A stretch of 64,000 nt of DNA from an uncultured Acidimicrobiales bacterium (GTDB taxonomy: Bacteria; Actinomycetota; Acidimicrobiia; Acidimicrobiales; JANYDT01). Both the position numbers and the translations under genes were made by a program. The stretch covers positions 304,389 to 368,388 of the forward strand of contig CAVXQD010000002.1 in NCBI GenBank assembly GCA_963763885.1, written 5' to 3'. The notes below the pieces were generated by a model that saw only the letters and a program-made list of their open reading frames with translations, ran no database searches and was not told the origin of the DNA. Positions 5,689 through 26,643 of the stretch are shown here, piece by piece. Each line of letters begins with the position of its first letter. The first letter of the stretch is position 1.

Positions 5689-6633
5689 ATGACTGCTCCA
5701 GCCCCGCTTCGCACACGAGTCACCGAACTCCTCGGTGTCGACTATCCGATCATCCAAGCCCCGATGGGATGGATTGCCCGGTCTCAGCTTGCCTCGGCTG
5801 TTTCGAACGCAGGTGGACTTGGGATCATCGAGACGTCATCCGGTGAACTCGACAATGTGAAGCGCGAAATCGAAAAGATCCGCGACCTCACGGATAAACC
5901 GTTCGGGGTCAACATCGCTCAGGCCTTTGTCCGAGACCCCGGTATCGCGCAATTCGTTATCGACCAGGGTGTTCGGTTTGTGACCACTTCCGCTGGCGAT
6001 CCCACCAAGTACACCGGGGCCTTGAAAGCCGCTGGTCTCACGGTATTCCACGTGGTTCCTACGCTCGCCGGAGCTCTCAAAGCAATCGCAGCGGGCGTCG
6101 ACGGTTTGGTCGTCGAGGGCGGCGAAGGCGGAGGATTCAAAAACCCACGCGACGTGGCGCTGATGGTTCTTCTCCCGCTCATCGCGTCGCAGGTCTCTGT
6201 TCCAATCGTCGCTGCTGGCGGCATCACCGATGGTCGATCCATGGCGGCTGCGTTTGCCCTTGGCGCCGACGCGGTGCAGATGGGCACCCGGATGGTGAGT
6301 GCAGCAGAATCACCCGTGCACAGCAATTGGAAAGATGCGATCGTCGGGGCGGCCGAAACAGACACGGTCTTCTTAAACCGATTCTCAAAGCCAGGCTTGC
6401 GGGCATTGCGAACGGAACGCACCACAAAGTTGGAACACGAGGATCACGTCGGAATGGATCAGTTCGGCCGTTCGATGGACCTTTATTTTGGCGGCGACAT
6501 GGAGTCTGCAATTGCCTTATGTGGACAGGTTGCGGGGCGCATCGCCAGCGTGGAACCTGTCGCTGACATCCTGCATTCGACCATTTCGGAGTTCCGCGAG
6601 AACGTCGCCTCGCTCAGTTCCCGCTTCGGCTGA
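5689..6633 (+). CDS. Nitronate monooxygenase / FabK-like flavoprotein
   Basis: PIIQAPM, PFGVNI, EGGEGGG, AAGGITDG, VQMGTR. Confidence 0.9.
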   Translation: MTAPAPLRTRVTELLGVDYPIIQAPMGWIARSQLASAVSNAGGLGIIETSSGELDNVKREIEKIRDLTDKPFGVNIAQAFVRDPGIAQFVIDQGVRFVTTSAGDPTKYTGALKAAGLTVFHVVPTLAGALKAIAAGVDGLVVEGGEGGGFKNPRDVALMVLLPLIASQVSVPIVAAGGITDGRSMAAAFALGADAVQMGTRMVSAAESPVHSNWKDAIVGAAETDTVFLNRFSKPGLRALRTERTTKLEHEDHVGMDQFGRSMDLYFGGDMESAIALCGQVAGRIASVEPVADILHSTISEFRENVASLSSRFG

Positions 6634-6786
6634 GAGCCCAGTCGCCCGGGGGATGGCCTGCGGAATCACGTAGTGCACTTCGACCGTCACCCGCATTGAC
6701 GCCAGTTGGGGCAAATTGTCGCGGTGAACATCGGCACACGGTTTTTCGCCGGTCTCATCACAATCGTGGGCCACAATGCAGCTCTT

Positions 6787-8235
6787 ATGGAATTGCCACC
6801 ACTCACCACCCTCAAAACAATTTTTGACCGTCTCAAGGCGAACGACATCGCTTGGTTCAAAGAACAATGGACATCAGGCGGCTTCGGCTGGCTGAAGGAT
6901 CGTCTGCCTGCAGGCGAATACGACCAAATCGGGTCACGCGTTGACGCTGGTGACCTCAGCCCTCTCAAGGGCGCGTTGGGCAAGCTTGACCTGCCTGGCG
7001 TCGATCTCTTCAAGGGCCTCGCAGGCAACGTTGCAGGTGCCGCAGGAGCAGTAACGGGTGTCGCAGGGGCGGCAACCGGTGCAGCAGCTGCCAAGCTCGG
7101 TTCGTCCACGGCAAAGGTCGGCGGCGCAGCTGCTGCTGGCGTAGCCGGCGCAAAGGCTGTCGTTGATAGCGGCAACAAGAAGAAGGGTGGCCTCATGTGG
7201 GTCATTCCTGCGCTGATTGCCGCTGCATTGCTCGCATTCGGCCTCAGCCGTTGTGGCGGTTCGTCCTCAACGACAACCGACACCACCGTTGTCGCTGTCG
7301 AAGACACCGTTGCCGTGGAAGAGACCGTTGCAGCGGTTGAAGAGACCGTCGTCGCAGAGACCACTGTCGCAGCGGTTGAAACAACCGTTGCAGCGGCGAC
7401 TGAGACCACCGCCGCAGCTGCTGCTGCAGCTGCCACTGGTGACATCCTTGCAACGGCAGAAGGCGCTGGTTCGTTCAAGACCCTCGGCGCAGCAATCAAC
7501 GCTGCAGGCCTGGCCGACACCTTGAAGGGTGAAGGCCCGTTCACGGTGTTCGCTCCGACCGATGACGCATTCGCAAAGCTTCCTGCTGGCGTCGTCGACG
7601 CTCTTCTGAAGCCAGAGAACAAGGACGCGTTGACCAAGGTCCTCACGTACCACGTTGTTCCAGGAATGGTCATGGCTGCCGACGTCACGGCTGGCGAAGT
7701 CGCCAGTGTCGAAGGCTCGCCCCTCACCATCACCACCGATGGCGGCGTGAAGGTCAACGGCGTCAATGTCACCTCGACCGACATCGCAGCTACCAACGGT
7801 GTCATCCATGTCCTCGACGGCGTCCTCGTGCCGCCAACCGTCGACATCAACGCGCTGCTTGGCGCAGCTGCTCCGACCACTGTTGCTGCTGCTGCCGCTC
7901 CTGCTGCACCTGAGTCCCTCACCGTCTACTTCGCCAACGCGTCGTCAGCGCTTGACGCCGAAGCCACGGCAAAGATCGACGGTGCAGTGGCTAACCTCAC
8001 GAAGCTGCCTGCAGGTTCAAAGGTCAGCATCGTGGGTCACGCATCCAAGACCGGCAACTCCGAGGCCAACGACGCGTTGTCCATCGCCCGTGCGAACAAC
8101 GTGAAGGCCGCGTTGGAGAAGGGCCTTGGCGCTGCCGCTAGCGGAATCACCTTCAACGTCGAGGCTCGTGGCGACACGCAGCCTGACGATGACGAAGCCA
8201 AGAGCCGCAAGGTCACCATCGAAATCCAGCCCTGA
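6787..8235 (+). CDS. Membrane-anchored fasciclin (FAS1) + OmpA-like domain protein
   Basis: TM helix, ETTVAA low-complexity linker, [11 protein letters not shown] and [11 protein letters not shown] (FAS1), VGHAS..N..LS..RA..V and RKVTIEI (OmpA_C). Confidence 0.88.
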
Positions 8236-17436: not shown

Positions 17437-18456
17437 GTGCGAGTACTCGTAACCGGTGGGGCCGGATACATCGGAAGCCATACCGTTGTCGAGCTCCTCG
17501 GCAAAGGGTATGAGGTTGCCATCGTCGACAACCTCGACAACGCAAAGGCCGAGTCAGTTCGTCGGGTCATCGCGATCGCCGGCCGGGAGGCCAGCTTGCA
17601 CGTCGTGGACATTGCAGACCACGACGCGTTGTCGGCAGTGTTTCAGTCCTTTCGGCCCGAAGCCGTTGTTCACTTTGCCGGCCTGAAGGCTGTCGGGGAG
17701 AGCAGCACCATTCCGCTGCGTTACTACTCCAACAACATCACCGGCACGCTTGTGCTGTTGCAGGTGATGGAGGCGCACGGCTGCAACACGCTCGTGTTCT
17801 CCTCCAGTGCAACGGTTTACCGAGCAGACAACCCTGTGCCGTTTGTGGAGTCTGCTTCGTTGGGCGCCTCCAACCCGTACGGGCGTACCAAGTGGTTCTT
17901 GGAAGAGATCCTCCGCGACGTTGCAGCTGCAGATTCCAAGTGGCGTTTTGGCTTGCTGCGCTACTTCAATCCGGTGGGTGCACATCCCAGTGGAATGATC
18001 GGCGAAGACCCCAACGGCATCCCCAACAACTTGCTGCCCTTCGTGGCGCAAGTTGCTGTTGGACGACGTGACCAGGTGCGAGTTTTCGGCAATGACTACG
18101 CCACCTCAGACGGCACCGGTGTGCGTGATTACATCCACGTGGTCGATTTGGCTCGCGGCCACCTGCGTTGTCTCGAGAAGCTCGAGGCACTCGGCCACGA
18201 GGCGGGTTGTCGAGTGTGGAACTTGGGTACGGGAAAAGGGACAAGCGTTTTGGAGATCATCCGGTCCTTCGAGCGGGCATCCGGCGTTGACATCCCTTAC
18301 GAAGTGGTGGGTCGTCGTGCAGGCGATGCTGCTGTCTCTTATGGCGACCCCACCAAGGCTCGCGAGGAGCTTGGTTGGTCTGCTGAGTACACCGTTGACT
18401 CTATGTGCACAGACGCGTGGAACTGGCAGCGATCCAACCCCAACGGTTATCCGTAG
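17437..18456 (+). CDS. galE: UDP-glucose 4-epimerase
   Basis: GGAGYIGSH, HFAGLKAVGES, YGRTK, LRYFNPVGAHPSG. Confidence 0.96.
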   Translation: MRVLVTGGAGYIGSHTVVELLGKGYEVAIVDNLDNAKAESVRRVIAIAGREASLHVVDIADHDALSAVFQSFRPEAVVHFAGLKAVGESSTIPLRYYSNNITGTLVLLQVMEAHGCNTLVFSSSATVYRADNPVPFVESASLGASNPYGRTKWFLEEILRDVAAADSKWRFGLLRYFNPVGAHPSGMIGEDPNGIPNNLLPFVAQVAVGRRDQVRVFGNDYATSDGTGVRDYIHVVDLARGHLRCLEKLEALGHEAGCRVWNLGTGKGTSVLEIIRSFERASGVDIPYEVVGRRAGDAAVSYGDPTKAREELGWSAEYTVDSMCTDAWNWQRSNPNGYP

Positions 18457-21116
18457 CCGCCCGTCAGCTGCTTGCCTGGTTGCTCTCGCGGGAGGAGCGG
18501 GCTGAGCACGGCCCACATCTCTCGATAGAGGGCGCTTCGTTCGCTGGTTGCGCCATCGGCTAACAGATGCGCTATGCCGTCTTCGGTGAGGTGTTTCGAC
18601 GCTTGATCCAAGATCACGGCGCGTTGGTCACGTGAGAACCCGGACCGTGACGCGGCAACGCATGCGCCAACAGCCCGGACCGCGAGCGGGTGGTTTCCCT
18701 CGCACTGCACAAGGCGAGCCAAAACGAGACCGATTCGGTTGAAGTCGCCCTGGAGCACGGGGTCGAGGTATTGGATTGCTGCGAGACGGTCGGCGATGGG
18801 AAGCCCTGCTTGAACGGCAGCTTCGGAGTACATGCTGACCAGTCCACTGGACATGATGGAAAGCATCGGCAGCGTGCCGAGGTGCTTCAAGATTGGTTTG
18901 GTGGTGCGCACCGCTCGTTCGGTGTTGTCCGTGCCAAGGGAACCAAGGCTGATCATGGATCCCGCTGGGATGAGGAGCCGGGTCAGGCCGGCCTTGGTCA
19001 CCGTTGCCAGCACCGTGTCAACTAGCCGGTCGGCTTCTTCGTGGCCACCGATATAGGAGTATCCGAGTAACGCAGCGGTCTTGAGGCGGGCCCGTTCTGC
19101 AGGGTCTTGCACGGTGTCGGCGCGAGCCGACAGTTGACCCATGTACTCGCCGAACCTTCCGCGCGCCAACGCGTTGGCAATCAGCAGGACCACGATCTGC
19201 ATCGAGCCCGGGTCGTCCAGCTGCAGATCTGCCGCAAGCTCAGCCGCAAGTTCTGCTCGGCCTTCGGTTCCGTCAGAAGTTGAGCGACGCACTAGTTCGA
19301 TGGCCAGGAGGCGGCGTCGTTGAGGATGACGCACTACCGCGTCGGCCTCCATGAGGGGAAGCACCAGCTCGGCGAGGATGCTTGCCACGTAACTGAAATC
19401 TTCGAAATGCAGGACCAGGTCGCCGGCCCGCTCAAACTCGCCTTCGCTCAGCAGTGTGGTGATGGCTTGGCGGAAATTGCCGTTTTCTTCGATGAGCTGC
19501 GCGATGCACCCTGCTTCGGCAGGTCCGACAGCGCGTTCTGAAAGGTCTTCGGCGATCTGGAAGCACCAGGCAGTATGGGCGCTCTGCGCCGCGTCAAGCT
19601 CGTGGTGGAGTTCCAGCTGTTCATATGCGTACTGGCGGATTGATTCGAGGAGAACAAACCGACTGTGCCCGGCTCGGGACTGGACGGAAAGCAGTGACCG
19701 GTCAACGAGCGCTTCAAGCAACCGGTTGTGTAGTTGGTCCAGGCCCGCCGCCATTGCTGCTGCGCCGCTGTTCGGGAAGCCGTCCTGAAATACTCCGACG
19801 CGTCGGAAGAAGGTCTGCTCTATGGGCGACAACGACTCGTACGACCAATCGATGGTGGCGCGCAAACTGTGGTGCCGATCAGGCTTGCGGGACCTGCCGG
19901 GTGCGGTGAGCACGTCAAGACGATGGTCGAGGTTGGACAGCAGCTCAGACAGACCCATGGTGCGCGTTGCCGCAGCTGCCAGCTCGATAGCGAGCGGGAT
20001 GCTGTCCAGCTGCTTGCAGATGCGGTCGACGATCTGGGACTGTCCCCGCGGGACCACCACACCGACCTGCATGGCGCGTTGTTCGAACAACGCGCGGGCG
20101 TCGTCGGCGGCGTCCAGCGGCCCGATGCGTGCTTGGAACTCACCGGGCACGCCAAGCGCTTCACGGCTTGTCGCGAGGATGCGCAGATGTTTGGTGCGGG
20201 ACAACAAAACCTCGGCCAACTCCGCAGCAAGCTCGACGATGTGTTCGCAGTTGTCGAGCACGAGGAGAAGGTGGTGTCCGCGGATCTGATCGGCCAGCGC
20301 TGCAGGGGACGCTGATGTGGGAAGGCGAAGCGCGTCTGCCACGGCCGAAAGAACCATGGTCATGTCTCGTGTGGCGGCCAGCTCCACGAACCAAACGCCA
20401 TCAGGGAAGTGCGTCTCGTGATGCTCGCCGACTGCTATCGAAAGCCTGGTTTTGCCTACTCCTCCCATGCCGACCATCGTCACGAGACGTGCTCTCGCGA
20501 TCAGCGAAGCGATCTCATCAAGCTCGGAAGCGCGTCCGATGAGATCGTTGACCTGAACCGGGACGTTGCCGGTGGCGCTTTCCAAGGTTCTGAGTGGGGG
20601 GTAGCGGCCTGCCCCGTACTGGAACAGTTTGACGATCGAGCTGACTCCCTTGAGCCGATGCATGCCGCACGACACCACGTCCGATGCAGGCGTGCTCACT
20701 TCCTCAGTGAAGAGGATCTGCCCGCCGTGCCCGGCATCACAGACGCGGGCGCACAAGTTGACAGCTGGACCGAAAACGTTGTCGCCTCTTTGCTCTACAG
20801 CCCCGCGGTGCAAACCTATGCGTACTGAGATTTGCGGTCCGCCCAACCAGTCCGCCTGGGCGAGGGCACTCTGAATTCTGCGGGCAGCGGTGATGGCCCC
20901 TGCGTCTGAGTCAAAAGCGGCACAGAATGCGTCTCCCGGATTTCCAAAAACGATGCCGCCAGCGGCCTCGATGCTGGACCGCATGACATCGTCATGGACT
21001 TTGAGACTGCTGGACATTCCCGTGGCATCGGCTTCCCACAGCGCGGTAGAGCCGACGATGTCGGTGAACAGAAGCGTTTGGATTTGCGAACTCTCGCTGG
21101 GTTCTGTGGTGCCCAC
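18447..21116 (-). CDS. Class III nucleotide cyclase + STAND ATPase + helical/TPR-like domain protein
   Basis: LLFTDIVGST, GDAF, VNLCARV (cyclase); GMGGVGKT, LVLDNCEH, ATSRE, LDSIPLAIELAAA, TIDWSY (STAND); start estimated at GTG 21116. Confidence 0.88.
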   Translation of the reverse strand: MGTTEPSESSQIQTLLFTDIVGSTALWEADATGMSSSLKVHDDVMRSSIEAAGGIVFGNPGDAFCAAFDSDAGAITAARRIQSALAQADWLGGPQISVRIGLHRGAVEQRGDNVFGPAVNLCARVCDAGHGGQILFTEEVSTPASDVVSCGMHRLKGVSSIVKLFQYGAGRYPPLRTLESATGNVPVQVNDLIGRASELDEIASLIARARLVTMVGMGGVGKTRLSIAVGEHHETHFPDGVWFVELAATRDMTMVLSAVADALRLPTSASPAALADQIRGHHLLLVLDNCEHIVELAAELAEVLLSRTKHLRILATSREALGVPGEFQARIGPLDAADDARALFEQRAMQVGVVVPRGQSQIVDRICKQLDSIPLAIELAAAATRTMGLSELLSNLDHRLDVLTAPGRSRKPDRHHSLRATIDWSYESLSPIEQTFFRRVGVFQDGFPNSGAAAMAAGLDQLHNRLLEALVDRSLLSVQSRAGHSRFVLLESIRQYAYEQLELHHELDAAQSAHTAWCFQIAEDLSERAVGPAEAGCIAQLIEENGNFRQAITTLLSEGEFERAGDLVLHFEDFSYVASILAELVLPLMEADAVVRHPQRRRLLAIELVRRSTSDGTEGRAELAAELAADLQLDDPGSMQIVVLLIANALARGRFGEYMGQLSARADTVQDPAERARLKTAALLGYSYIGGHEEADRLVDTVLATVTKAGLTRLLIPAGSMISLGSLGTDNTERAVRTTKPILKHLGTLPMLSIMSSGLVSMYSEAAVQAGLPIADRLAAIQYLDPVLQGDFNRIGLVLARLVQCEGNHPLAVRAVGACVAASRSGFSRDQRAVILDQASKHLTEDGIAHLLADGATSERSALYREMWAVLSPLLPREQPGKQLTGGYG

Positions 21117-21233
21117 GAACGGAAGGGTACCGCGTCCGACTTCTGCGAAGTCGAGTGTGATGTTCTGCGGTGCTGTCTTCAGTGTTGTCGGTGTGTCGCT
21201 TGTGCGGTCAACTGTTCCCACGTACCGTTGCTT

Positions 21234-22904
21234 ATGGACACGACTCTTGAATCGGTGATCGACCTTCGGGAGCGGTTGGCTCGTGAGCTTCAGTCCACGC
21301 CGGAACGGTTTGCAAATGATCGCGCATTGGCTGTTGCCCGAACTCGATATGAGTGGCAGCACATCCCCGGGCTTCCTCCATTTGCCAAACAAAACCCAGA
21401 TGCCCCAGAACTCCAGCAAAAGGGAAGGCTGGGTTATGACTACGCGATGAGCATCCTCAATGGTGCTCTCAGTGGGTTCGGTTGGGGGCGAGACAAAGGG
21501 GCCCGTAGCCATCGTTTGGAGCACTATTCCCACTTCTATCTTTGGCGAGACATGCCAAAGGTTGCGGCTCGATGGAAGACCGACGCGGAGTTTGCGCGGC
21601 AGCGTCTCAACGGCGTCAACCCGCTCCTCATCAAACGGATAGCCGCGATCCCCGAGAATTTCGCAGTTGACGATGAGCGTCTCCGCGGGGTGCTTCCAGC
21701 GGGCTTTTCGCTGACCCGGCTCCTTGGCGAAGGTCGCCTCTTCTTGTGTGACTGGGCAGCGCTCGACGAATGTCCCGTTGCATTTGGACGGTTCTTGTCG
21801 GCCCCGTTGGCACTGTTCTGGGTCAACGAAGACCGTGTGTTGATGCCGCTCGCTATTCAGCTCGCGCAGTCCATCACCACGGCCAAGGTGGTGTTTACGC
21901 CGGCGGATGAACCGTGGCTGTGGCTCACCGCTCGCACCCACGTGCAAGCGGCCGACGCAGCTCTCCACGAGATTGTGGAACACCTCGCAAAGACCCACCT
22001 GGTGATGGAAACGGTCTTTGTTGCGATGAGCCGCACGCTTCCGCCGCAGCATCCGGTGCACCAATTTTTAGCGCCTCATTTTGAAGGGACGCTGTTCATC
22101 AACCGTGGTGCACGCGACACCATGATTGCTCCCGAGGGTCCCATCGACCGATCCATCGCAGTTGGTACCGACGGGGCCTATTGGCTCATTGGGCAAGCCT
22201 GGTCGAAGTTTTCTTTCGCAGACCTGCACCTTCCAGAGGATCTGGCGTTGCGCGACGTCGCGGACCAAGACGGTCTGCCGGGTTACTACTACAGAGACGA
22301 CGCGCAGTTGTTGTGGCGGGCAATGGCTGCGTATACCGAAGAGGTTCTTCGCCACTTCTACGCCGACGACGCTTCAGTCGCGACGGACGAACAGCTGGCC
22401 GCATGGTGGCATGAACTGACTGCTGCCGATGCGGGCGGGATGGCAGGCCTCCCCGGCTCCGATGGACGGTTCCGAACGTTCGCAGAATTGCACAGGATGA
22501 TTACGGTCACGATGTTCACCGCAACGGTTCAACATTCCGCCGTCAACAACGGCCAGTACGACATCTTCGGCTTCATCCCAAACTCGCCCGGTGCGATGTT
22601 TTTGCCGCCGCCCACCACTCTCGACGTCAGCTCAGAAGGTCTGTTCACGTACGGTCTGCCGACGTTCACAGCGTCCGCAATCCAACTGAAGCTTGTGCAC
22701 CTCTTGTCAGCACCACCAATGTCTCGGCTGGGGGAGTACCGGCCAGAGTTCCTTCGGGAGCACCGTGAGGTCCGCGCTGCTGTTGACCGGTTTCTCGTTG
22801 CACTCGACGAAGTCGCGTTCCGCATAGACGAGCGCAATTCGCAGGTTGCCGTGCCGTACACGTACCTGCAGCCTGCCAACATCGCTAACTCGATCAGCGT
22901 GTAG
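21234..22904 (+). CDS. Lipoxygenase
   Basis: W..DAEFARQRLNGVNP, LMPLAIQL, WLTARTHV, HEIVEHLAKTHL, HPV..FL.PHF, YYYRDDA, QHSAVN, C-terminal YTYLQP..IANSISV. Confidence 0.96.
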   Translation: MDTTLESVIDLRERLARELQSTPERFANDRALAVARTRYEWQHIPGLPPFAKQNPDAPELQQKGRLGYDYAMSILNGALSGFGWGRDKGARSHRLEHYSHFYLWRDMPKVAARWKTDAEFARQRLNGVNPLLIKRIAAIPENFAVDDERLRGVLPAGFSLTRLLGEGRLFLCDWAALDECPVAFGRFLSAPLALFWVNEDRVLMPLAIQLAQSITTAKVVFTPADEPWLWLTARTHVQAADAALHEIVEHLAKTHLVMETVFVAMSRTLPPQHPVHQFLAPHFEGTLFINRGARDTMIAPEGPIDRSIAVGTDGAYWLIGQAWSKFSFADLHLPEDLALRDVADQDGLPGYYYRDDAQLLWRAMAAYTEEVLRHFYADDASVATDEQLAAWWHELTAADAGGMAGLPGSDGRFRTFAELHRMITVTMFTATVQHSAVNNGQYDIFGFIPNSPGAMFLPPPTTLDVSSEGLFTYGLPTFTASAIQLKLVHLLSAPPMSRLGEYRPEFLREHREVRAAVDRFLVALDEVAFRIDERNSQVAVPYTYLQPANIANSISV

Positions 22905-24171
22905 TGGACGCCGTCTGTATATCCCGCATATCACGGCCGCGCCCGTGTCTGATGGGTTGCTCCACCTCGGACTCAACTCCGATCCCTCCGTTCGCCACTC
23001 GGCCGCGCCCGCTTGGGATGGGTTGCTCCACCTCGGACTCAACTCCGATCCCTCCGTTCGCCACTCGGCCGCGCCCGGGTGGGATCGGCATCGGCGGAAT
23101 CGGATCCCAATCAGGTGCGTATCGAGAGTCTGGAAACTTGGCTGGCATGCCACGAAGCCTGTAGGAGAGCAGTCGTGCCTGTGCGGCGCGTCGTGTTGCC
23201 AACCGAAGGTTGTTGACCGAATGGGGGTCGTCGATGGAAACGCCGGTGGGCACCGGAAGCGATGGTGGGTGGTTTCCGATGTCGTACCAGGTGAGCATTG
23301 ATTCCTCGTAGTCCAGCGCTTCGGTGAGGGTCACTTCGGCCACGTCGTGCCATGGGGTGACGGTCTCGTCCCACTCGTACTGCGCGGTTACCCACGTGGG
23401 GTCTGGTCCCGGCGGCTTGCGCCGTGTCTGGATCTGGAAGCGGTACTGAATGGTGCCGTCGCCTTCCAGCCGAGCGCGTAGTTCGTCTTTCAGGTAGTTG
23501 CGTGTGCGTTGCTCGTCTGGCAGCGGGTTCTGGAACCAGTTGTGGTCTTTCCACCACTGTGGAAGCTCGCCTGAATCTGTCCCATCCCAACCTTCAGCTG
23601 GAATGAGACGGTACCGGCAGTAGTAGTACGTGCCCATGCGATCGACGAAACCGAAGCAGGTCTGGCTGTTGTAGCTGAGCTTCGAGAACGATTCAGGGTT
23701 TCGCCGGCTGCTGTCTCCGCCACCGAATACGGCTTGTGGGTTGGTCCTGAGGTAGTGGACGAACATCTTTCCGCGTTCGTTGGTCTTGCGAAATTGCCAA
23801 GTAGTGCGAGCGCTCCAGAACAGCCCGACGCGGCCGGTGTTCATCAGAACGTCGAAGGGTGAGGCGAAGCGCTCGTCTGAGAGTTTGAGCGCTGCCGACC
23901 GAACGCACATCTTGGCGTCATCTCGAAAGAGAACTGATCCGTGTCTGAGTCTGCAGGGAAACTCGCGGCCCGGCTGAAAGAAGTCGTGCTCTGGGAAGGT
24001 TGGATTGTCCACCACCCGAAACCTTCCCCGCGTGAGGGCGCCGTTCTCATGTGACATTCGTTTGCGTTGAACGAACGCGCTGATGGTGATGCCCACCGTC
24101 ATGACGGCGACGATTGCCTGTAGCTGCAGTCGGAGCAAACTGGCCCAGAGGTTGTCGAACATTGTGTTCAC
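22894..24171 (-). CDS. Catalase-related hemoprotein, allene oxide synthase/hydroperoxide lyase-like
   Basis: RMSH, FPEHDFFQPGREFPCRLRH, DD...RS..LK, MNTG, RR.P..F..L.Y.SQ, YCRYR, YRFQIQ, WDETVTPW closely parallel the coral AOS domain as recalled. Confidence 0.85.
   Translation of the reverse strand: MNTMFDNLWASLLRLQLQAIVAVMTVGITISAFVQRKRMSHENGALTRGRFRVVDNPTFPEHDFFQPGREFPCRLRHGSVLFRDDAKMCVRSAALKLSDERFASPFDVLMNTGRVGLFWSARTTWQFRKTNERGKMFVHYLRTNPQAVFGGGDSSRRNPESFSKLSYNSQTCFGFVDRMGTYYYCRYRLIPAEGWDGTDSGELPQWWKDHNWFQNPLPDEQRTRNYLKDELRARLEGDGTIQYRFQIQTRRKPPGPDPTWVTAQYEWDETVTPWHDVAEVTLTEALDYEESMLTWYDIGNHPPSLPVPTGVSIDDPHSVNNLRLATRRAAQARLLSYRLRGMPAKFPDSRYAPDWDPIPPMPIPPGRGRVANGGIGVESEVEQPIPSGRGRVANGGIGVESEVEQPIRHGRGRDMRDIQTASTTR
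22934..23077 (-). repeat. MIRU-like 66-bp tandem repeat (2.2 copies) read in frame within the AOS-like C-terminus
   Basis: cggccgcgcccg at 22934, 23000 and 23066; peptide GRGRVANGGIGVESEVEQPI occurs twice. Confidence 0.92.
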
Positions 24172-24520
24172 CCAAATTCGTCGGTGTTGCGTCCGACGGT
24201 ACTCCTGCCTGGCGAGCGTTGCTCAGCCATATGAGGGCGCCTCTTCCTGGCGTCCGCTCCGCCAGGAAGAGACGACGGTTTCCGCCGACCACAACCCGGC
24301 TGAGATCGTTCGAACGTCTCGCCGATACCCGCTCGTTTTGCGATGCCGAGTCGTGGTTCCTCTTGGAACCAAATGTAAAGACTTACGACTCTCAGGACAC
24401 CGTAAGCGTGCGGGATATGGCGGCTGGTGCGAGGCTCAGTGCCGTGAGCGAGTAGCCGGTTGTGAAATGTCGTTCAGGTGAGCGACGCTCAGCGGAGTAT
24501 CACCGGTGACTCACGGTGTT

Positions 24521-24542
24521 GGCGCAGATGGCGAGATCTGCG
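24521..24542 (-). terminator. Hairpin downstream of the P450 gene
   Basis: gcgcagat-ggcgag-atctgcgc. Confidence 0.5.
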
Positions 24543-24559
24543 CTGGGCGCCGGGACGAA

Positions 24560-25783
24560 TCAGGTAGGGAACTTCACCGGGATGTTGCGAGGGCCTCGGA
24601 CCTGTCCACCGGCCCACGTGACAGCGGCATCATCACGGAGTTCGAACTCCGGAATCAGCGCCAGCCACTCGTCGACCGCCACCGTGAGTTCCATACGCGC
24701 AAGGTTTGAACCGGCGCATCGATGAATACCAGCACCGAAGGCCACGTGGCGGTTGATCTCTCGGTCGAGGATCACTTTGTCTGCATCTGGGAACTGTTGT
24801 GGATCTCGGTTTGCCGCGGGGAAGTTGAGGATGACTCTGTCTCCTGCGTGCATCGGGCACCCCTGCACCTCGATGTCCTCGGTGACGATTCGGGCCATGG
24901 TGACTGGCGAGTACGCCCGCAGCAGTTCTTCAATGGCGAACGGGCGGATCTCCGGTTCATTCACCATCCTGGCCCGGTCTTCGGGGTGCGTTGCGAGGTG
25001 CCACAGGGAAGAACCGATGGCCGACCAGGTGGTGTCAACCCCTGCGATGAGTGTGAGTGCGACGGTACCGAGGATGTGGGGGTCTGGGACTGGTGCGCCG
25101 TCAACCTCCGCGCGCAGCAACGCGCTGATGAGGTCTTCGCCATCGCCGCCACGGCGCTCGTCCATGCAGGCCATGAAATAGGCGGCAACCTCTTTCGTTG
25201 CCTGCTGGCGGCGAGGCCCATCGTTGGCAAACTCCAGAATGTCCCGGACCCAGCCGGTGAACGTGTCTGAATCTGACTCTGGGACTCCGAGGACCTTGCC
25301 GATGATGCGCACCGGAATCTGCTGGGCGTAGTCGGCTGCCGCGTCGGCCTGGCCCTTTTCAATAAACCCGCGGAGCAATTGGCGACACAGGTCACGGGTG
25401 TAGGTCTCGTAGAAGTCGACCTGCTTCGGTGAGAACCATGGCAAGAGAAGCCGGCGGGACCATCCGTGAACGGGAGGGTCTGCGGAGATCGGAGGAACAC
25501 CGGCCGAGAGGATGCCGCCCTGCCCTTGGTTCAACGGGGGAGGTGGGATCACGGCAACACTTCGTGAGCTGAAGTGCTCGACGTCGCGTGCGATGGCTGT
25601 GACGGATTCGTAGGTAGTTGGCAGCCAGGAACCGTCGTAGCGGTCAGAGTGGGCAATGGGGCAGTCTCCGCGCAACTCATCCCAGATGGGAAACGGATTA
25701 CCGATGTAACGCGGGTCGAACACGTCGTAGTCAGTCGCCCAGTCGTGGGCGCCGGTTGGCGCTACCTCGTTGTTTGCGTTCAT
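24560..25783 (-). CDS. Cytochrome P450
   Basis: AGVDTT I-helix, EELLR, heme motif FGAGIHRCAG; ATGA overlap with the upstream TauD-family gene. Confidence 0.95.
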   Translation of the reverse strand: MNANNEVAPTGAHDWATDYDVFDPRYIGNPFPIWDELRGDCPIAHSDRYDGSWLPTTYESVTAIARDVEHFSSRSVAVIPPPPLNQGQGGILSAGVPPISADPPVHGWSRRLLLPWFSPKQVDFYETYTRDLCRQLLRGFIEKGQADAAADYAQQIPVRIIGKVLGVPESDSDTFTGWVRDILEFANDGPRRQQATKEVAAYFMACMDERRGGDGEDLISALLRAEVDGAPVPDPHILGTVALTLIAGVDTTWSAIGSSLWHLATHPEDRARMVNEPEIRPFAIEELLRAYSPVTMARIVTEDIEVQGCPMHAGDRVILNFPAANRDPQQFPDADKVILDREINRHVAFGAGIHRCAGSNLARMELTVAVDEWLALIPEFELRDDAAVTWAGGQVRGPRNIPVKFPT

Positions 25784-26613
25784 CGTGCGTTGCTCCCTGC
25801 GTAGAAGGGCTGTTCGCCCTGCGTGGTGACCCGCCACCCCGAACGGGTCTCTGGGAAATAGTCCCAGCTGGCGTGGTGTTGCACGCACCTGTTGTCCCAC
25901 AGCGTGATGGTGTTGGGCTCCCACCGTATGCGGCACTGGAACTCGACTCCCAATGCAATGTGGTCAAACAGCATCTTGAGCAGCGCTGAGCTTTCTTCCT
26001 TCGTAACTCCTTTGATGCGGTCCGTGAACCCTGCGTTGACGTAAAGCGCGGTTCGGCCCGTATGGGGGTGGGTGCGCGCAACGGGGTGAACGTTGTTGGG
26101 GTAGTCGATTTCCGCCTTGCTCTTGTACTGGCCGCGCCACGGAAGGTCGCCGGCGTGGACGGCCTCACGTTCTGCAAGGAATGCGCGCATAGGGGCCGAT
26201 AGCGCTTCCCAAGCCTGATACATCGATGCAAACGCTGTGTCTCCGCCGCACGACGGCGTGGTTTCGATTCGCAACATGGAGATGGCTGGCGGCTGGAGGT
26301 CGCACGACACATCCGTGTGCCACCCTTCACCTGCGGTGTAGCGGGAGTTGGCATCGGTGTGGATTCGCAATGCTTCGGGGTGCTCTGCATCTGCGTAAGC
26401 CGGATGAACGTGAAGGGGGCCGAAGCGGCGTCCCAGCTCGATTTGTTCATCGAGGGTCATGTGCTGGTCTCGCACCGCCACGGCGCCGCGCTCGGCTACG
26501 AGGAGCTTGATCTCATCGATTCCGTCCTGGTTGAGCGACCGCAAGTCGACGCCGGTAAGCACCGTGCCTACGTATCGGTTGAGATCTTGTCGGGTTGCGG
26601 TCAACGAACTCAT
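25780..26613 (-). CDS. TauD/TfdA-family Fe(II)/2-oxoglutarate dioxygenase
   Basis: WHTDVS, GGDT, HPVARTHP, WDNRCVQH. Confidence 0.93.
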   Translation of the reverse strand: MSSLTATRQDLNRYVGTVLTGVDLRSLNQDGIDEIKLLVAERGAVAVRDQHMTLDEQIELGRRFGPLHVHPAYADAEHPEALRIHTDANSRYTAGEGWHTDVSCDLQPPAISMLRIETTPSCGGDTAFASMYQAWEALSAPMRAFLAEREAVHAGDLPWRGQYKSKAEIDYPNNVHPVARTHPHTGRTALYVNAGFTDRIKGVTKEESSALLKMLFDHIALGVEFQCRIRWEPNTITLWDNRCVQHHASWDYFPETRSGWRVTTQGEQPFYAGSNAR

Positions 26614-26643
26614 GATGTCCCTCGGTTCCGGCGAAAGTTGCAA

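What the first reader, a model, noticed from the sequence alone, without database searches (positions are those of the whole stretch)
21234..24171. Unfused lipoxygenase + catalase-related allene oxide synthase pair: candidate oxylipin pathway in an actinobacterium
Seen: a complete lipoxygenase (H-x4-H, HSAVN, terminal SISV) and a short catalase-fold protein, convergent and overlapping by 11 bp. Known: catalase-related AOS/HPL enzymes that convert LOX hydroperoxides are characterised mainly as LOX fusions in corals (Plexaura homomalla AOS-8R-LOX) and cyanobacteria (Anabaena, Acaryochloris). By eye this protein follows the coral AOS domain motif for motif. Inference: a two-gene, independently transcribed oxylipin system making allene oxides, ketols or aldehydes, probably from algal or host PUFAs, in a lineage where I know of no such pathway.
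Basis: partly seen in the sequence, partly recalled or inferred. Interest (0 to 1): 0.92.

Follow-up and report, generated by a model that had tools for sequence, protein, structure and literature searches.

The report
Lipoxygenase paired with tyrosine-less catalase-fold protein
An Acidimicrobiia bacterium carries a lipoxygenase next to a relative of the coral allene oxide synthase that lacks the usual haem-binding tyrosine, and this pair, usually joined by a large signalling gene, recurs in many bacterial phyla and so looks like an undescribed bacterial lipid-signal module.

Summary
The two genes are real. The first is a 556-aa mini-lipoxygenase (LOX, 21234..22904, +) with all iron ligands. 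The second is a catalase-fold protein (CAT-like, 24171..22894, -). The two ORFs converge and overlap by 11 bp.

The closest solved relative of the CAT-like protein is the coral allene oxide synthase domain (cAOS), far ahead of any catalase. It matches no Pfam or NCBIfam model.

The genes are tightly linked:
- a LOX lies beside the CAT-like gene in 70 of 80 loci from many phyla;
- fused CAT-LOX proteins exist;
- among 401 Acidimicrobiia genomes sampled, the 3 with the CAT-like gene are the 3 with a close, adjacent LOX.

- The protein is not cAOS "motif for motif". The distal Thr-His is Ser-His, and the proximal tyrosine haem ligand is a small residue in 99 of 101 family members. Allene oxide synthase activity cannot be assumed.
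- 70 of 80 loci also carry a STAND NTPase signalling gene, 67 of them with a nucleotide cyclase domain. Here it is the divergent gene 21116..18447.

The 3' extension of the CAT-like ORF is an in-frame insertion of a dispersed 66-bp repeat.

My best reading is a conserved, laterally spread oxylipin module tied to signalling, with an unknown product. I rate it a new variant of a known kind, interest about 0.72.

The parts
21234..22904 (+). Mini-lipoxygenase (LOX), 556 aa with no PLAT domain. Iron ligands are H245 (21966-21968), H250 (21981-21983), H434 (22533-22535), N438 (22545-22547) and the C-terminal V556 (22899-22901).
   Evidence: Pfam PF00305 at E 5.1e-62. PDB best hit is ALOX15B at E 7.7e-81; the Cyanothece mini-LOX 5med aligns over residues 28-556. 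The ligand columns are invariant in 19 homologues. Coordinates were checked. Start 21234 is supported by L001 and L002, which begin at the same residues.
22894..24171 (-). cAOS-related catalase-fold protein (CAT-like), ORF of 425 aa. The homologue-supported start is probably ATG 24162. Key residues: R38, S40-H41 (24049-24054), R76, N111 (23839-23841), R323 (23203-23205), T326 in place of the proximal Tyr (23194-23196), R333 (23173-23175).
23092..24171 (-). Folded catalase-core domain of the CAT-like protein (residues 1-360), including an N-terminal hydrophobic helix (residues ~13-34).
   Evidence: pLDDT is at least 84 in all 10-residue blocks up to residue 360 except 131-140 (70) and 251-260 (73). 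Foldseek versus 1u5u gives E 1.7e-31. Kyte-Doolittle 19-residue maximum is 1.82.
22934..23085 (.). 2.3 tandem copies of a 66-bp dispersed repeat, inserted in frame into the 3' tail of the CAT-like ORF.
   Evidence: Tandem Repeats Finder score 269. The insertion is absent from L001 and L002 at the same site. The unit occurs at 94 places in the genome. Two other proteins of the own genome match only this part (P0099, P0102).
22894..22904 (.). 11-bp overlap of the 3' ends of the two convergent ORFs.
18447..21116 (-). Signalling gene (REG) transcribed divergently from the LOX. It is a class III nucleotide cyclase - NB-ARC/AAA STAND NTPase - long C-terminal region, 889 aa from GTG 21116.
   Evidence: Pfam Guanylate_cyc 1.7e-9 and NB-ARC 1e-9. 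It is conserved at the same place in L001 (84%), L002 (80%) and L075 (66%). The start codon is a choice among candidates listed.
21117..21233 (.). 117-bp divergent intergenic region between the signalling gene and the LOX; presumed promoters.
   Evidence: Geometry only. The consensus scan found no sigma-70-like site.

Best explanation
The window holds a conserved bacterial oxylipin module. It consists of a mini-lipoxygenase, a catalase-fold protein of a distinct tyrosine-less sister family of the coral allene oxide synthase, and a neighbouring STAND NTPase/nucleotide-cyclase signalling gene.

Shown:
- The LOX has a full iron site.
- The CAT-like protein has the cAOS fold. It keeps the distal His and Asn and the three arginines that hold the haem propionates in cAOS.
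- It has Ser instead of Thr before the His and a small residue instead of the proximal Tyr.
- The two genes are inherited together, occur fused in some bacteria, and are nearly always beside a STAND/cyclase gene.

Inferred:
- The LOX turns a polyunsaturated fatty acid into a hydroperoxide.
- The CAT-like protein binds or transforms that hydroperoxide into a secondary oxylipin of unknown structure.
- The product, or the enzymes themselves, are wired to the STAND/cyclase protein, so that lipid oxidation is coupled to cAMP/cGMP or transcriptional output.

My odds for the separate steps:
- functional coupling of LOX and CAT-like protein: about 0.9;
- the CAT-like protein acts on the LOX hydroperoxide: about 0.6;
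- a signalling link to the STAND/cyclase gene: about 0.45;
- the product is an allene oxide: about 0.15.
For: LOX
- Pfam PF00305 at E 5.1e-62.
- Ligands H245, H250, H434 and N438 are invariant in 19 homologues; the C-terminal residue is I or V in the 17 of 19 rows that reach the end.

CAT-like protein
- phmmer versus cAOS 1u5u gives E 4.8e-49; the family profile gives 3.8e-89 versus 1.5e-7 or weaker for catalases.
- Foldseek top hit is 1u5u at E 1.7e-31, rmsd 1.8 A, against about 1e-15 for catalases.
- R38, H41, R76, N111 and R333 correspond to cAOS R64, H67, R102, N137 and R360. That residue list comes from passages of PMC5617202.
- These columns are conserved in 98 of 98, 98 of 98, 98 of 98, 99 of 100 and 101 of 101 sequences with a residue there.

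Linkage of LOX and CAT-like gene
- Of 80 genome loci found with the CAT-like family, 70 hold a LOX.
- Of the 10 without a LOX, 9 are cut by a contig end within 6 kb on at least one side. Only L066 has 6 kb or more on both sides.
- Fused CAT-LOX proteins exist: P0103-P0105 (894-942 aa) and a single 982-aa ORF in L036.
- In 401 sampled genomes of the class, the CAT-like gene is in 3. The only close LOX matches are in the same 3 and are adjacent.
- Pairwise distances of CAT-like and LOX proteins correlate at r 0.90 (n 24 and n 41; 0 of 2000 permutations reach it). Kinship alone also produces such a correlation.

Signalling partner
- A STAND and/or cyclase gene lies in 70 of 80 loci, and 67 have a cyclase domain.
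- Architectures seen by Pfam: Pkinase-AAA_16-GAF-cyclase; (SAM-)cyclase-AAA_16-TPR; cyclase-NB-ARC here; BTAD-NB-ARC in L004.

Complex prediction (LOX + CAT-like 1-365 + haem)
- Verdict was weak support: score 0.58 (runs 0.58, 0.45, 0.61) against a best control of 0.00.
- The mark was reached by 58 of 80 solved complexes and 2 of 110 mismatched pairs. At 0.60 or under, only 7 of those 80 and both mismatches reached it.
- The runs agree in at least 0% of contacts; partner pLDDT is at least 87.
- The coral fusion 3dy5 is solved, so the pass may come from memory.
Against: - The proximal Tyr ligand is absent. The aligned column is S 50, G 32, A 11, T 6, Y 1 and gap 1 of 101. One residue is also deleted after R323. 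So haem binding and cAOS-type chemistry are uncertain, and I found no conserved alternative ligand.
- No enzyme activity, haem content or product is known for any member.
- The substrate is unknown. The genome has 6 desaturase-family genes, but none reaches a curated equivalog cut-off, and there is no PfaD-type PUFA synthase over the cut-off.
- The signalling link rests on gene neighbourhood only. L003 has the LOX and CAT-like genes and 7 kb on both sides but no STAND/cyclase gene, and L066 has the CAT-like gene alone.
- The giant kinase-GAF-cyclase form is not in this genome.
- The partner here is one of a gene type that I recall to be common in Actinobacteria. Its conservation in L001, L002 and L075 could partly reflect close kinship.
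Confidence: 0.6

Rival explanations
1. The second protein is a true haem allene oxide synthase or hydroperoxide lyase that works like the coral cAOS/cHPL, so the pair makes allene oxides, ketols or aldehydes.
For: - cAOS is by far the closest solved relative in sequence and fold.
- The distal His and Asn and the propionate arginines are conserved.
- It is linked and sometimes fused to a LOX in the same N-to-C order as the coral enzyme.
Against: - The proximal Tyr353 equivalent is T326 here and a small residue in 99 of 101 members. Only P0101 and P0097 have a Tyr at or next to the site.
- Thr66 is Ser.
- A one-residue deletion shifts R323 relative to the ligand site.
- cAOS chemistry, as I recall it, depends on a Tyr-ligated haem.
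Confidence: 0.14
2. The catalase-fold protein has lost haem catalysis. It serves as a lipid- or hydroperoxide-binding subunit: a sensor, chaperone or regulator of the LOX, or the adaptor that hands a lipid signal to the STAND protein.
For: - There is no proximal ligand in 99 of 101 members.
- It matches no catalase family model.
- It is constantly co-located with a STAND/TPR sensor protein.
- It has a hydrophobic N-terminal helix; the Kyte-Doolittle 19-residue score is at least 1.6 in 62 of 93 members.
Against: The distal His, the Asn and all three propionate-binding arginines are essentially invariant across about 37-93% identity. That is hard to explain without a bound haem or a comparable anionic ligand. 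The arginines could, however, hold a fatty-acid carboxylate instead.
Confidence: 0.16
3. The three genes form a conflict or stress system rather than a signal pathway. A STAND NTPase senses an invader or damage, and the LOX and CAT-like proteins are effectors that peroxidise or detoxify lipids. This would include detoxifying algal PUFAs or hydroperoxides.
For: - I recall that STAND NTPases are common sensors in defence systems.
- The kinase and cyclase domains of the giant partner hit PADLOC models PD-T4-6 and PycC.
- The distribution is patchy and looks laterally spread: 3 of 401 genomes in the class, but many phyla.
Against: - There is no PADLOC hit for the LOX, the CAT-like protein or this window's STAND/cyclase gene.
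- The PADLOC hits of the giant protein are generic domain similarities.
- As far as I recall, bacterial membranes rarely hold LOX substrates.
- No mobile-element or defence-island genes appeared in the annotated ORFs around the pair. Base composition is even, at GC 0.59-0.65.
Confidence: 0.08
4. The adjacency is chance, and the second gene is an ordinary small catalase or SrpA-type protein that removes peroxide.
For: A few family members carry a precomputed PF00199 hit (P0029, P0081, P0101), and JGI names some of them 'catalase'.
Against: - There is no PF00199 hit for this protein even at E 10.
- The family profile strongly prefers cAOS.
- LOX linkage holds in 70 of 80 loci, and fusions exist.
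- Co-occurrence is perfect in the class sample.
Confidence: 0.02

Closest known systems
cAOS domain of the Plexaura homomalla allene oxide synthase-8R-lipoxygenase fusion (PDB 1u5u, 3dy5)
   Same: - Same catalase-core fold: rmsd 1.8 A, 31% identity.
- Distal His and Asn and the arginines R64, R102 and R360 are conserved.
- Partnered with a LOX, and N-terminal to it in the fused bacterial forms.
   Different: - Ser instead of Thr66.
- Small residue instead of the Tyr353 ligand, and a one-residue deletion after R349.
- Unfused and convergent in this window.
- A conserved C-terminal motif (FPDSR..PDW..PPM) in the family consensus lies beyond the last residue aligned to the solved cAOS chain.
- A more hydrophobic N-terminal helix.
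- Activity unknown.
Cyanobacterial catalase-LOX fusion proteins (Acaryochloris marina; Anabaena recalled)
   Same: Bacterial catalase-related domain coupled to a mini-LOX. Passages in PMC11719350 and PMC3523812 and titles in PMC13319228 support this.
   Different: The characterised ones are fusions and are described as haem AOS-type enzymes. I could not fetch their sequences, so whether they keep Thr-His and Tyr was not tested here. I recall that they do.
Fusarium graminearum catalase next to a 13S-LOX gene (Teder et al. 2017, BBA)
   Same: An unfused catalase-type haemoprotein encoded beside a LOX and acting on its hydroperoxide. I saw only one sentence and the reference title in PMC6085349.
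   Different: It is eukaryotic and described as a catalase. The paper is not held, so no residue comparison was possible.
33-kDa catalase-related protein of Mycobacterium avium subsp. paratuberculosis (PDB 3e4w)
   Same: A small actinobacterial catalase-fold protein.
   Different: It is a far weaker match: profile E 7e-9 over residues 35-252 only and Foldseek E 1.9e-14. It is not the family of this protein.
Cyanothece sp. mini-lipoxygenase CspLOX2 (PDB 5med) and animal ALOX15B (7laf)
   Same: A LOX catalytic domain without the PLAT domain. Full-length alignment to 5med covers residues 28-556 (E 1.9e-65). The best score is to ALOX15B (E 7.7e-81).
   Different: The C-terminal residue is Val instead of Ile. 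It forms its own clade that always sits beside the CAT-like gene in the class sample.
Cyclase-ATPase-TPR multidomain proteins of Actinobacteria (Rv0386 type; recalled, not tested)
   Same: The domain order is class III cyclase, then STAND ATPase, then a long helical C-terminal part.
   Different: No LuxR-type HTH was found by Pfam. It is conserved beside the LOX and CAT-like genes in the three closest relatives (L001, L002, L075). L032 has a weaker 33% match, upstream of the CAT-like gene.

Membership tests
Iron lipoxygenase (Pfam PF00305) | Match to the family model above the curated cut-off | tested here: met
   210.8 bits against a cut-off of 23.6, E 5.1e-62.
Iron lipoxygenase (Pfam PF00305) | Iron ligands: two His in H-x4-H, His and Asn in H-x3-N, and the C-terminal carboxylate (Ile/Val) | tested here: met
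   H245, H250, H434, N438 and V556 align with the ALOX15B ligand motifs. The four side-chain ligand columns are invariant in 19 homologues; the C-terminal residue is I or V in the 17 of 19 rows that reach the end. Which ALOX15B residues are the ligands is recalled.
Iron lipoxygenase (Pfam PF00305) | Dioxygenation of a 1,4-pentadiene fatty acid | not testable with these tools
   This needs an enzyme assay. Ala293 at the Coffa-Brash position would suggest S stereochemistry, but both the rule and the position are recalled (for the residue).
Catalase-related allene oxide synthase (cAOS) | Catalase-core fold closest to cAOS | tested here: met
Catalase-related allene oxide synthase (cAOS) | Distal His67 and Asn137 | tested here: met
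   H41 is present in 98 of 98 sequences and N111 in 99 of 100. The residue list is from PMC5617202.
Catalase-related allene oxide synthase (cAOS) | Thr66 directly before the distal His (Thr-His pair) | tested here: not met
   It is Ser40 here. The column is S in 97 and T in 1 of 98 sequences. This is a conservative change.
Catalase-related allene oxide synthase (cAOS) | Proximal haem ligand Tyr353 | tested here: not met
   The profile alignment puts Y353 on T326; the pairwise alignment puts it on R327. Family column 326 is S 50, G 32, A 11, T 6, Y 1 and gap 1 of 101. Column 327 is variable, and P0097 is the only sequence flagged with Y there.
Catalase-related allene oxide synthase (cAOS) | Haem-propionate arginines R64, R102 and R360 | tested here: met
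   R38, R76 and R333 are invariant where a residue is present.
Catalase-related allene oxide synthase (cAOS) | Bound haem and conversion of a LOX hydroperoxide to an allene oxide | not testable with these tools
   No coordinates of the model, and no haem geometry, are given by the tools. This needs spectroscopy and LC-MS.
Catalase-related allene oxide synthase (cAOS) | Coupling to a lipoxygenase (fusion or neighbour) | tested here: met
   70 of 80 loci; fusions; 3 of 3 genomes in the class sample.
Monofunctional haem catalase (Pfam PF00199) / SrpA-type | Match to the catalase family model | tested here: not met
   No Pfam family at E up to 10 and no NCBIfam family at E up to 0.01. Profile E to solved catalases is 1.5e-7 or weaker. 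SrpA itself was not compared.
STAND NTPase / class III cyclase signalling proteins (the neighbour) | Cyclase catalytic domain plus NB-ARC/AAA_16 NTPase domain | tested here: met
   Guanylate_cyc at 38.0 bits (cut-off 21.9) and NB-ARC at 38.5 bits (cut-off 23.5).

The most novel reading that the evidence does not exclude
Bacteria from many phyla carry a self-contained lipid-mediator signalling pathway. A LOX and a haem protein of a new tyrosine-less cAOS-like family convert a polyunsaturated fatty acid, probably one released by algae or a host, into an oxylipin. The co-encoded STAND-TPR/GAF protein senses that oxylipin and answers with cAMP or cGMP, or through its kinase or transcription-activator domain. 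This would be a prokaryotic counterpart of eicosanoid or jasmonate signalling, or a detector of eukaryotic neighbours. It would also give the catalase fold a new kind of haem site without a protein-derived proximal ligand.
Probability: 0.3. Interest if true: 0.9.

Novelty: new variant of a known kind. Interest (0 to 1): 0.72.

Why it matters
- Enzymes. Catalase-related enzymes that act on fatty acid hydroperoxides are known from corals, a few cyanobacteria and a fungus. Bacterial lipoxygenases still have no agreed physiological role.
- A new family. The LOX partner here has no family model. It spans at least seven phyla and has dropped the tyrosine that defines haem binding in catalases and cAOS, yet it keeps the rest of the site under strong conservation. 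It should show either a new way to hold or use haem in the catalase fold, or a new non-haem use of that fold.
- A testable link to signalling. The near-constant third gene, a STAND NTPase with cyclase, kinase/GAF or transcription-activator modules, makes it possible to test whether bacteria use LOX-derived oxylipins as signals. One cultured carrier, Limnovirga soli (locus L034), is available for experiments.

Tried and rejected
- P450 as a fourth member. The P450 upstream of the CAT-like gene (24560..25936, Pfam E 2e-25) is found in 0 of 80 related loci. I rejected it as part of the module.
- Giant kinase-GAF-cyclase gene in this genome. Only weak partial matches appeared, so this clade uses the shorter cyclase-STAND form.
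- Defence-system models. PADLOC gives nothing for the LOX, the CAT-like protein or this window's STAND/cyclase gene. The giant partner gives generic kinase and cyclase hits only.
- Promoter and terminator scan of 20900..24700. It found 0 promoter-like sites and 3 terminator-like sites against 3.4 expected. This is uninformative.
- Expression. No RNA holder was listed among 11 runs.
- Endogenous substrate. There are six desaturase-family genes, but none reaches a curated cut-off, and there is no PfaD over the cut-off. The question stays open.
- ESM Atlas. The nearest cluster is a 101-member 'hypothetical protein' set without a Pfam family (score 0.97). Catalase-named clusters score 0.93. This adds nothing decisive.
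- Complex prediction. The verdict was weak support only, and a like complex is solved. I do not rely on it.
- Y337 as a displaced ligand. Y337 (Y in 92 of 101) is 11 residues beyond the ligand site on the same helix (helix 318-340). R333 already fills the R360 position. I consider this unlikely, but it cannot be excluded without coordinates.
- Literature. Searches found no description of this family, of an unfused bacterial cAOS-like/LOX pair, or of the LOX-STAND/cyclase cluster.
  - The 2026 review PMC13319228 has 0 occurrences of 'catalase', 'Actinobacteria' or 'gene cluster'.
  - The preprint 10.1101/2022.06.21.497025 has 0 occurrences of 'catalase', 'Actinobacteria', 'allene oxide' or 'cyclase'.
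  - The library lacks most subscription papers, and the key Brash-laboratory papers were not held.
Supplemental Fig. 2 of PMC3523812, on relatives of the catalase-LOX fusions, may bear on prior knowledge.

Full report
**What is in the window**

ORF listing shows two convergent ORFs.
- On the + strand, an ORF ends at 22904.
- On the - strand, an ORF runs from 24171 to 22894.
- They share 11 bp (22894..22904).

The + strand ORF read from ATG 21234 gives 556 aa.
- It matches Pfam Lipoxygenase at E 5.1e-62.
- Among solved structures it is closest to human ALOX15B (E 7.7e-81).
- It aligns over nearly its whole length (28-556) with the Cyanothece mini-LOX 5med. It is therefore a LOX catalytic domain without a PLAT domain.
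- H245 and H250 (HEIVEH) and H434 and N438 (HSAVN) align with the metal-ligand motifs of ALOX15B and are invariant in 19 homologues. The C-terminal V556 aligns with the terminal Ile of ALOX15B, and that position is I or V in the 17 of 19 rows that reach the end.
- Coordinates were checked.
- Start 21234 is preferred over the earlier ATG 20994. The 81-85% identical homologues in L001 and L002 begin with the same residues, and an earlier start would overlap the divergent gene.

**The second protein (CAT-like)**

- The 425-aa product has no Pfam family even at E 10 and no NCBIfam family at E up to 0.01.
- phmmer against PDB sequences finds the Plexaura homomalla cAOS domain at E 4.8e-49.
- A profile of 26 family members finds cAOS at E 3.8e-89. 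The M. avium catalase-related protein scores 7e-9, and true catalases score 1.5e-7 or weaker.
- An AlphaFold2 model built on the 26-row alignment has mean pLDDT 83.6.
- That model superposes on 1u5u at rmsd 1.8 A, TM 0.83 and 31% identity. Foldseek gives E 1.7e-31, against about 1e-15 for catalases.
- Homologues begin at the fourth codon, so the true start is probably ATG 24162.

**Where it departs from cAOS**

Passages of PMC5617202 list the cAOS haem residues:
- R64, R102 and R360 hold the haem;
- T66, H67 and N137 are distal;
- Y353 is the proximal ligand.

In an alignment of 101 family members:
- R38, H41, R76 and R333 are invariant wherever a residue is present, and N111 is present in 99 of 100;
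- the residue before the His is Ser in 97 of 98 sequences and Thr in one, where cAOS has Thr;
- the profile alignment to cAOS places Y353 on position 326, W355 on position 328 (Trp in 65 of 101) and R360 on R333, with one residue deleted after R323;
- position 326 is S 50, G 32, A 11, T 6, Y 1 and gap 1;
- the ungapped pairwise alignment instead puts Y353 on R327, a variable column. P0097 is the only sequence the script flagged with a Tyr there.

So 99 of 101 members, including this one (T326, R327), have no tyrosine at the ligand site.

The helix is modelled with pLDDT 94-95. A tyrosine 11 residues further on (Y337, 92 of 101) lies beyond the position of the propionate arginine. I think it unlikely to be the ligand, but I could not inspect coordinates.

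The claim "motif for motif" is therefore wrong in the one residue that defines haem ligation in this fold.

**The 3' extension**

- Typical homologues are 365-385 aa.
- Tandem Repeats Finder reports 2.3 copies of a 66-bp unit at 22934..23085.
- Compared with L001 and L002, the window has about 49 extra codons inserted in frame after PIPPG. The stop codon, inside the last LOX codons, is the same as in L001.
- The unit occurs at 94 places in the 4.98-Mb genome, and other ORFs of this genome run through it (P0099, P0102).
- The tail is modelled as disordered.
- The 11-bp overlap is thus ancestral in this clade, and the long tail is a repeat insertion.

**Linkage to LOX**

- A scan of one genome per GTDB species found 108 relatives, of which 80 loci were kept.
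- They come from Acidimicrobiia, Alpha-, Beta- and Gammaproteobacteria, Bacteroidota, Verrucomicrobiota, Ignavibacteria, Acidobacteriota, Methylomirabilota and Planctomycetota.
- Nearly all are metagenome-assembled. The only record not labelled as a metagenome-assembled genome is Limnovirga soli KCS-6 (L034).
- tblastn over these loci finds a LOX in 70 of 80. There are two forms.
  - 26 loci have a mini-LOX like ours. In 25 it is convergent with the CAT-like gene, either directly (gaps of 65-253 bp) or with 1.4-5.5 kb between them. In most of the widely spaced loci one giant gene fills the gap. In L036 the two are fused in a single ORF.
  - 44 loci have a divergent LOX of about 720 aa (Pfam E 5.8e-9). 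It sits 33-332 bp upstream on the same strand.
- The 10 loci without a LOX are L009, L011, L012, L013, L016, L018, L020, L029, L066 and L069. All but L066 have less than 6 kb on at least one side.
- The two LOX forms go with two clades of the CAT-like protein (at least 47% identity versus about 37-43% identity to ours).
- Within each form, the pairwise distances of the two proteins correlate at r 0.90. Shared descent alone would also give this.
- Fusions exist: three clusters of 894-942 aa and a single 982-aa ORF in L036. The CAT-like part is N-terminal, as in the coral enzyme, and these too have MSHENG and no Tyr.
- In 401 sampled genomes of the class, the CAT-like gene is in 3. The only close LOX matches are in the same 3 and adjacent. 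Three other genomes have only a 25-31% identical LOX-like gene.
- The other sampled genome of the same family has neither gene. The module is rare and patchy, which fits lateral spread.

**A third partner**

- The gene between the LOX and the CAT-like gene in many loci encodes 1500-1800 aa: Ser/Thr kinase, AAA_16 STAND NTPase, GAF and class III cyclase (Pfam).
- In the second clade the same kind of gene lies directly upstream of the LOX on the same strand.
- Other loci have a shorter (SAM-)cyclase-AAA_16-TPR gene divergent from, or convergent with, the pair.
- L004 has BTAD-NB-ARC instead.
- In this window the gene divergent from the LOX (21116..18447, 889 aa) is cyclase-NB-ARC plus a long C-terminal part. 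It is conserved at the same place in L001 (84%), L002 (80%) and L075 (66%).

Over all 80 loci:
- 70 have a STAND and/or cyclase match, and 67 have a cyclase match;
- 65 have both a LOX and such a gene;
- 5 have only the LOX (L003, L040, L046, L055, L061);
- 5 have only the signalling gene;
- 5 have neither.

Only L003 and L066 have 6 kb or more on both sides and still lack a part.

The giant form is not in this genome. PADLOC gives no defence-system hit for the LOX, the CAT-like protein or our signalling gene.

**How it most likely works**

Shown:
- an intact LOX iron site;
- a cAOS-fold partner with conserved distal His/Asn and propionate arginines but no proximal Tyr;
- strict co-inheritance and occasional fusion;
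- a nearly constant STAND/cyclase neighbour.

Inferred:
- The LOX makes a fatty acid hydroperoxide.
- The partner binds or rearranges it. Its product cannot be named, because the haem ligand that drives cAOS chemistry is missing.
- The process is coupled to the STAND protein, either as a ligand source for its TPR/GAF sensor parts or as its regulated target.

Substrate origin is open.
- The genome has six desaturase-family genes of unclear specificity.
- It has no PfaD-type PUFA synthase over the cut-off.
- An exogenous PUFA is therefore plausible but untested.

A complex prediction of LOX with the CAT-like domain and haem gave weak support only.
- The score was 0.58 against a best control of 0.00.
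- Such scores at or below 0.60 were reached by 7 of the 80 solved complexes in the tool's calibration and by both of the passing mismatches.
- The runs agree in at least 0% of contacts, and partner pLDDT is at least 87.
- The coral fusion is a solved look-alike, so I give this little weight.

**Comparison with what is known, and novelty**

- It works like the coral and cyanobacterial catalase-LOX fusions (passages in PMC3523812, PMC11719350 and PMC10813956).
- It also resembles the unfused fungal catalase next to a LOX gene. I saw only a sentence and the reference title for that in PMC6085349.
- It is not a member of the cAOS enzyme family in the strict sense, because the Tyr ligand and the Thr-His pair were tested and not met.
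- Seven literature searches and two targeted look-ups found no description of this family or of the three-gene cluster.
- The held library is incomplete, three key papers were not held, and supplements were closed.
- I rate it a new variant of a known kind.

**Verdict**

The specific AOS claim is not supported. The more interesting result is a widespread, uncharacterised, tyrosine-less cAOS-like family locked to LOX and to STAND/cyclase signalling genes. Interest is 0.72.

Noticed in passing
window 22934-23085, and 94 places in G000: A 66-bp repeat unit is dispersed through the genome in arrays of up to 389 bp. Several ORFs read through it in frame, including the tail of the CAT-like gene and proteins P0099 and P0102. 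It is probably a REP- or MITE-like element of this lineage.
   Followed up: partly
L036 4004-6952 (+): An Ectothiorhodospiraceae MAG encodes the CAT-like and LOX parts as a single 982-aa ORF. It is convergent with a SAM-cyclase-AAA_16-TPR gene. This is a genome-resolved bacterial fusion of the tyrosine-less family.
   Followed up: partly
L004 8274-11120 (+); L003 3699-6050 (-): In one Acidimicrobiales locus the STAND neighbour carries a BTAD (SARP-type activator) domain instead of a cyclase. In L003, which has no STAND gene, a 784-aa GDSL lipase lies about 1 kb upstream of the CAT-like gene. It could be a source of free fatty acid.
   Followed up: no
window 24070-24135 (CAT-like residues ~13-34): A hydrophobic N-terminal helix directly precedes the distal His motif. 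The Kyte-Doolittle 19-residue score is 1.82 here and at least 1.6 in 62 of 93 family members. This may indicate membrane association, but it aligns with a helix of the soluble coral domain.
   Followed up: partly
window 24560-25936 (-) and 25780-26643 (-): A cytochrome P450 (Pfam E 2e-25) lies 388 bp upstream of the CAT-like gene on the same strand. A further ORF overlaps the longest reading of its 5' end. I take that ORF for a TauD-type dioxygenase by eye only; it was not scanned. The P450 is not found in any of the 80 related loci.
   Followed up: partly
L081 1270-2703 (G000 contig C1): One of the six desaturase-family genes of this genome is fused to a C-terminal Rieske-type 2Fe-2S ferredoxin domain (MocE-family match at E 1e-27). 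This would be a desaturase carrying its own electron donor.
   Followed up: no
G298 C34:4773-5882 (= L010): The CAT-like gene of this genome of the same order (genus g7) has one in-frame TAG. It may be a pseudogene, a sequencing error or a recoding event.
   Followed up: no
L045 1734-6895: In a Flammeovirgaceae MAG the giant signalling gene runs to about 6518. Only a short LOX-like stretch (6560-6895, 37% identity over query residues 88-201) lies before the CAT-like gene. The LOX may be truncated or rearranged there.
   Followed up: no
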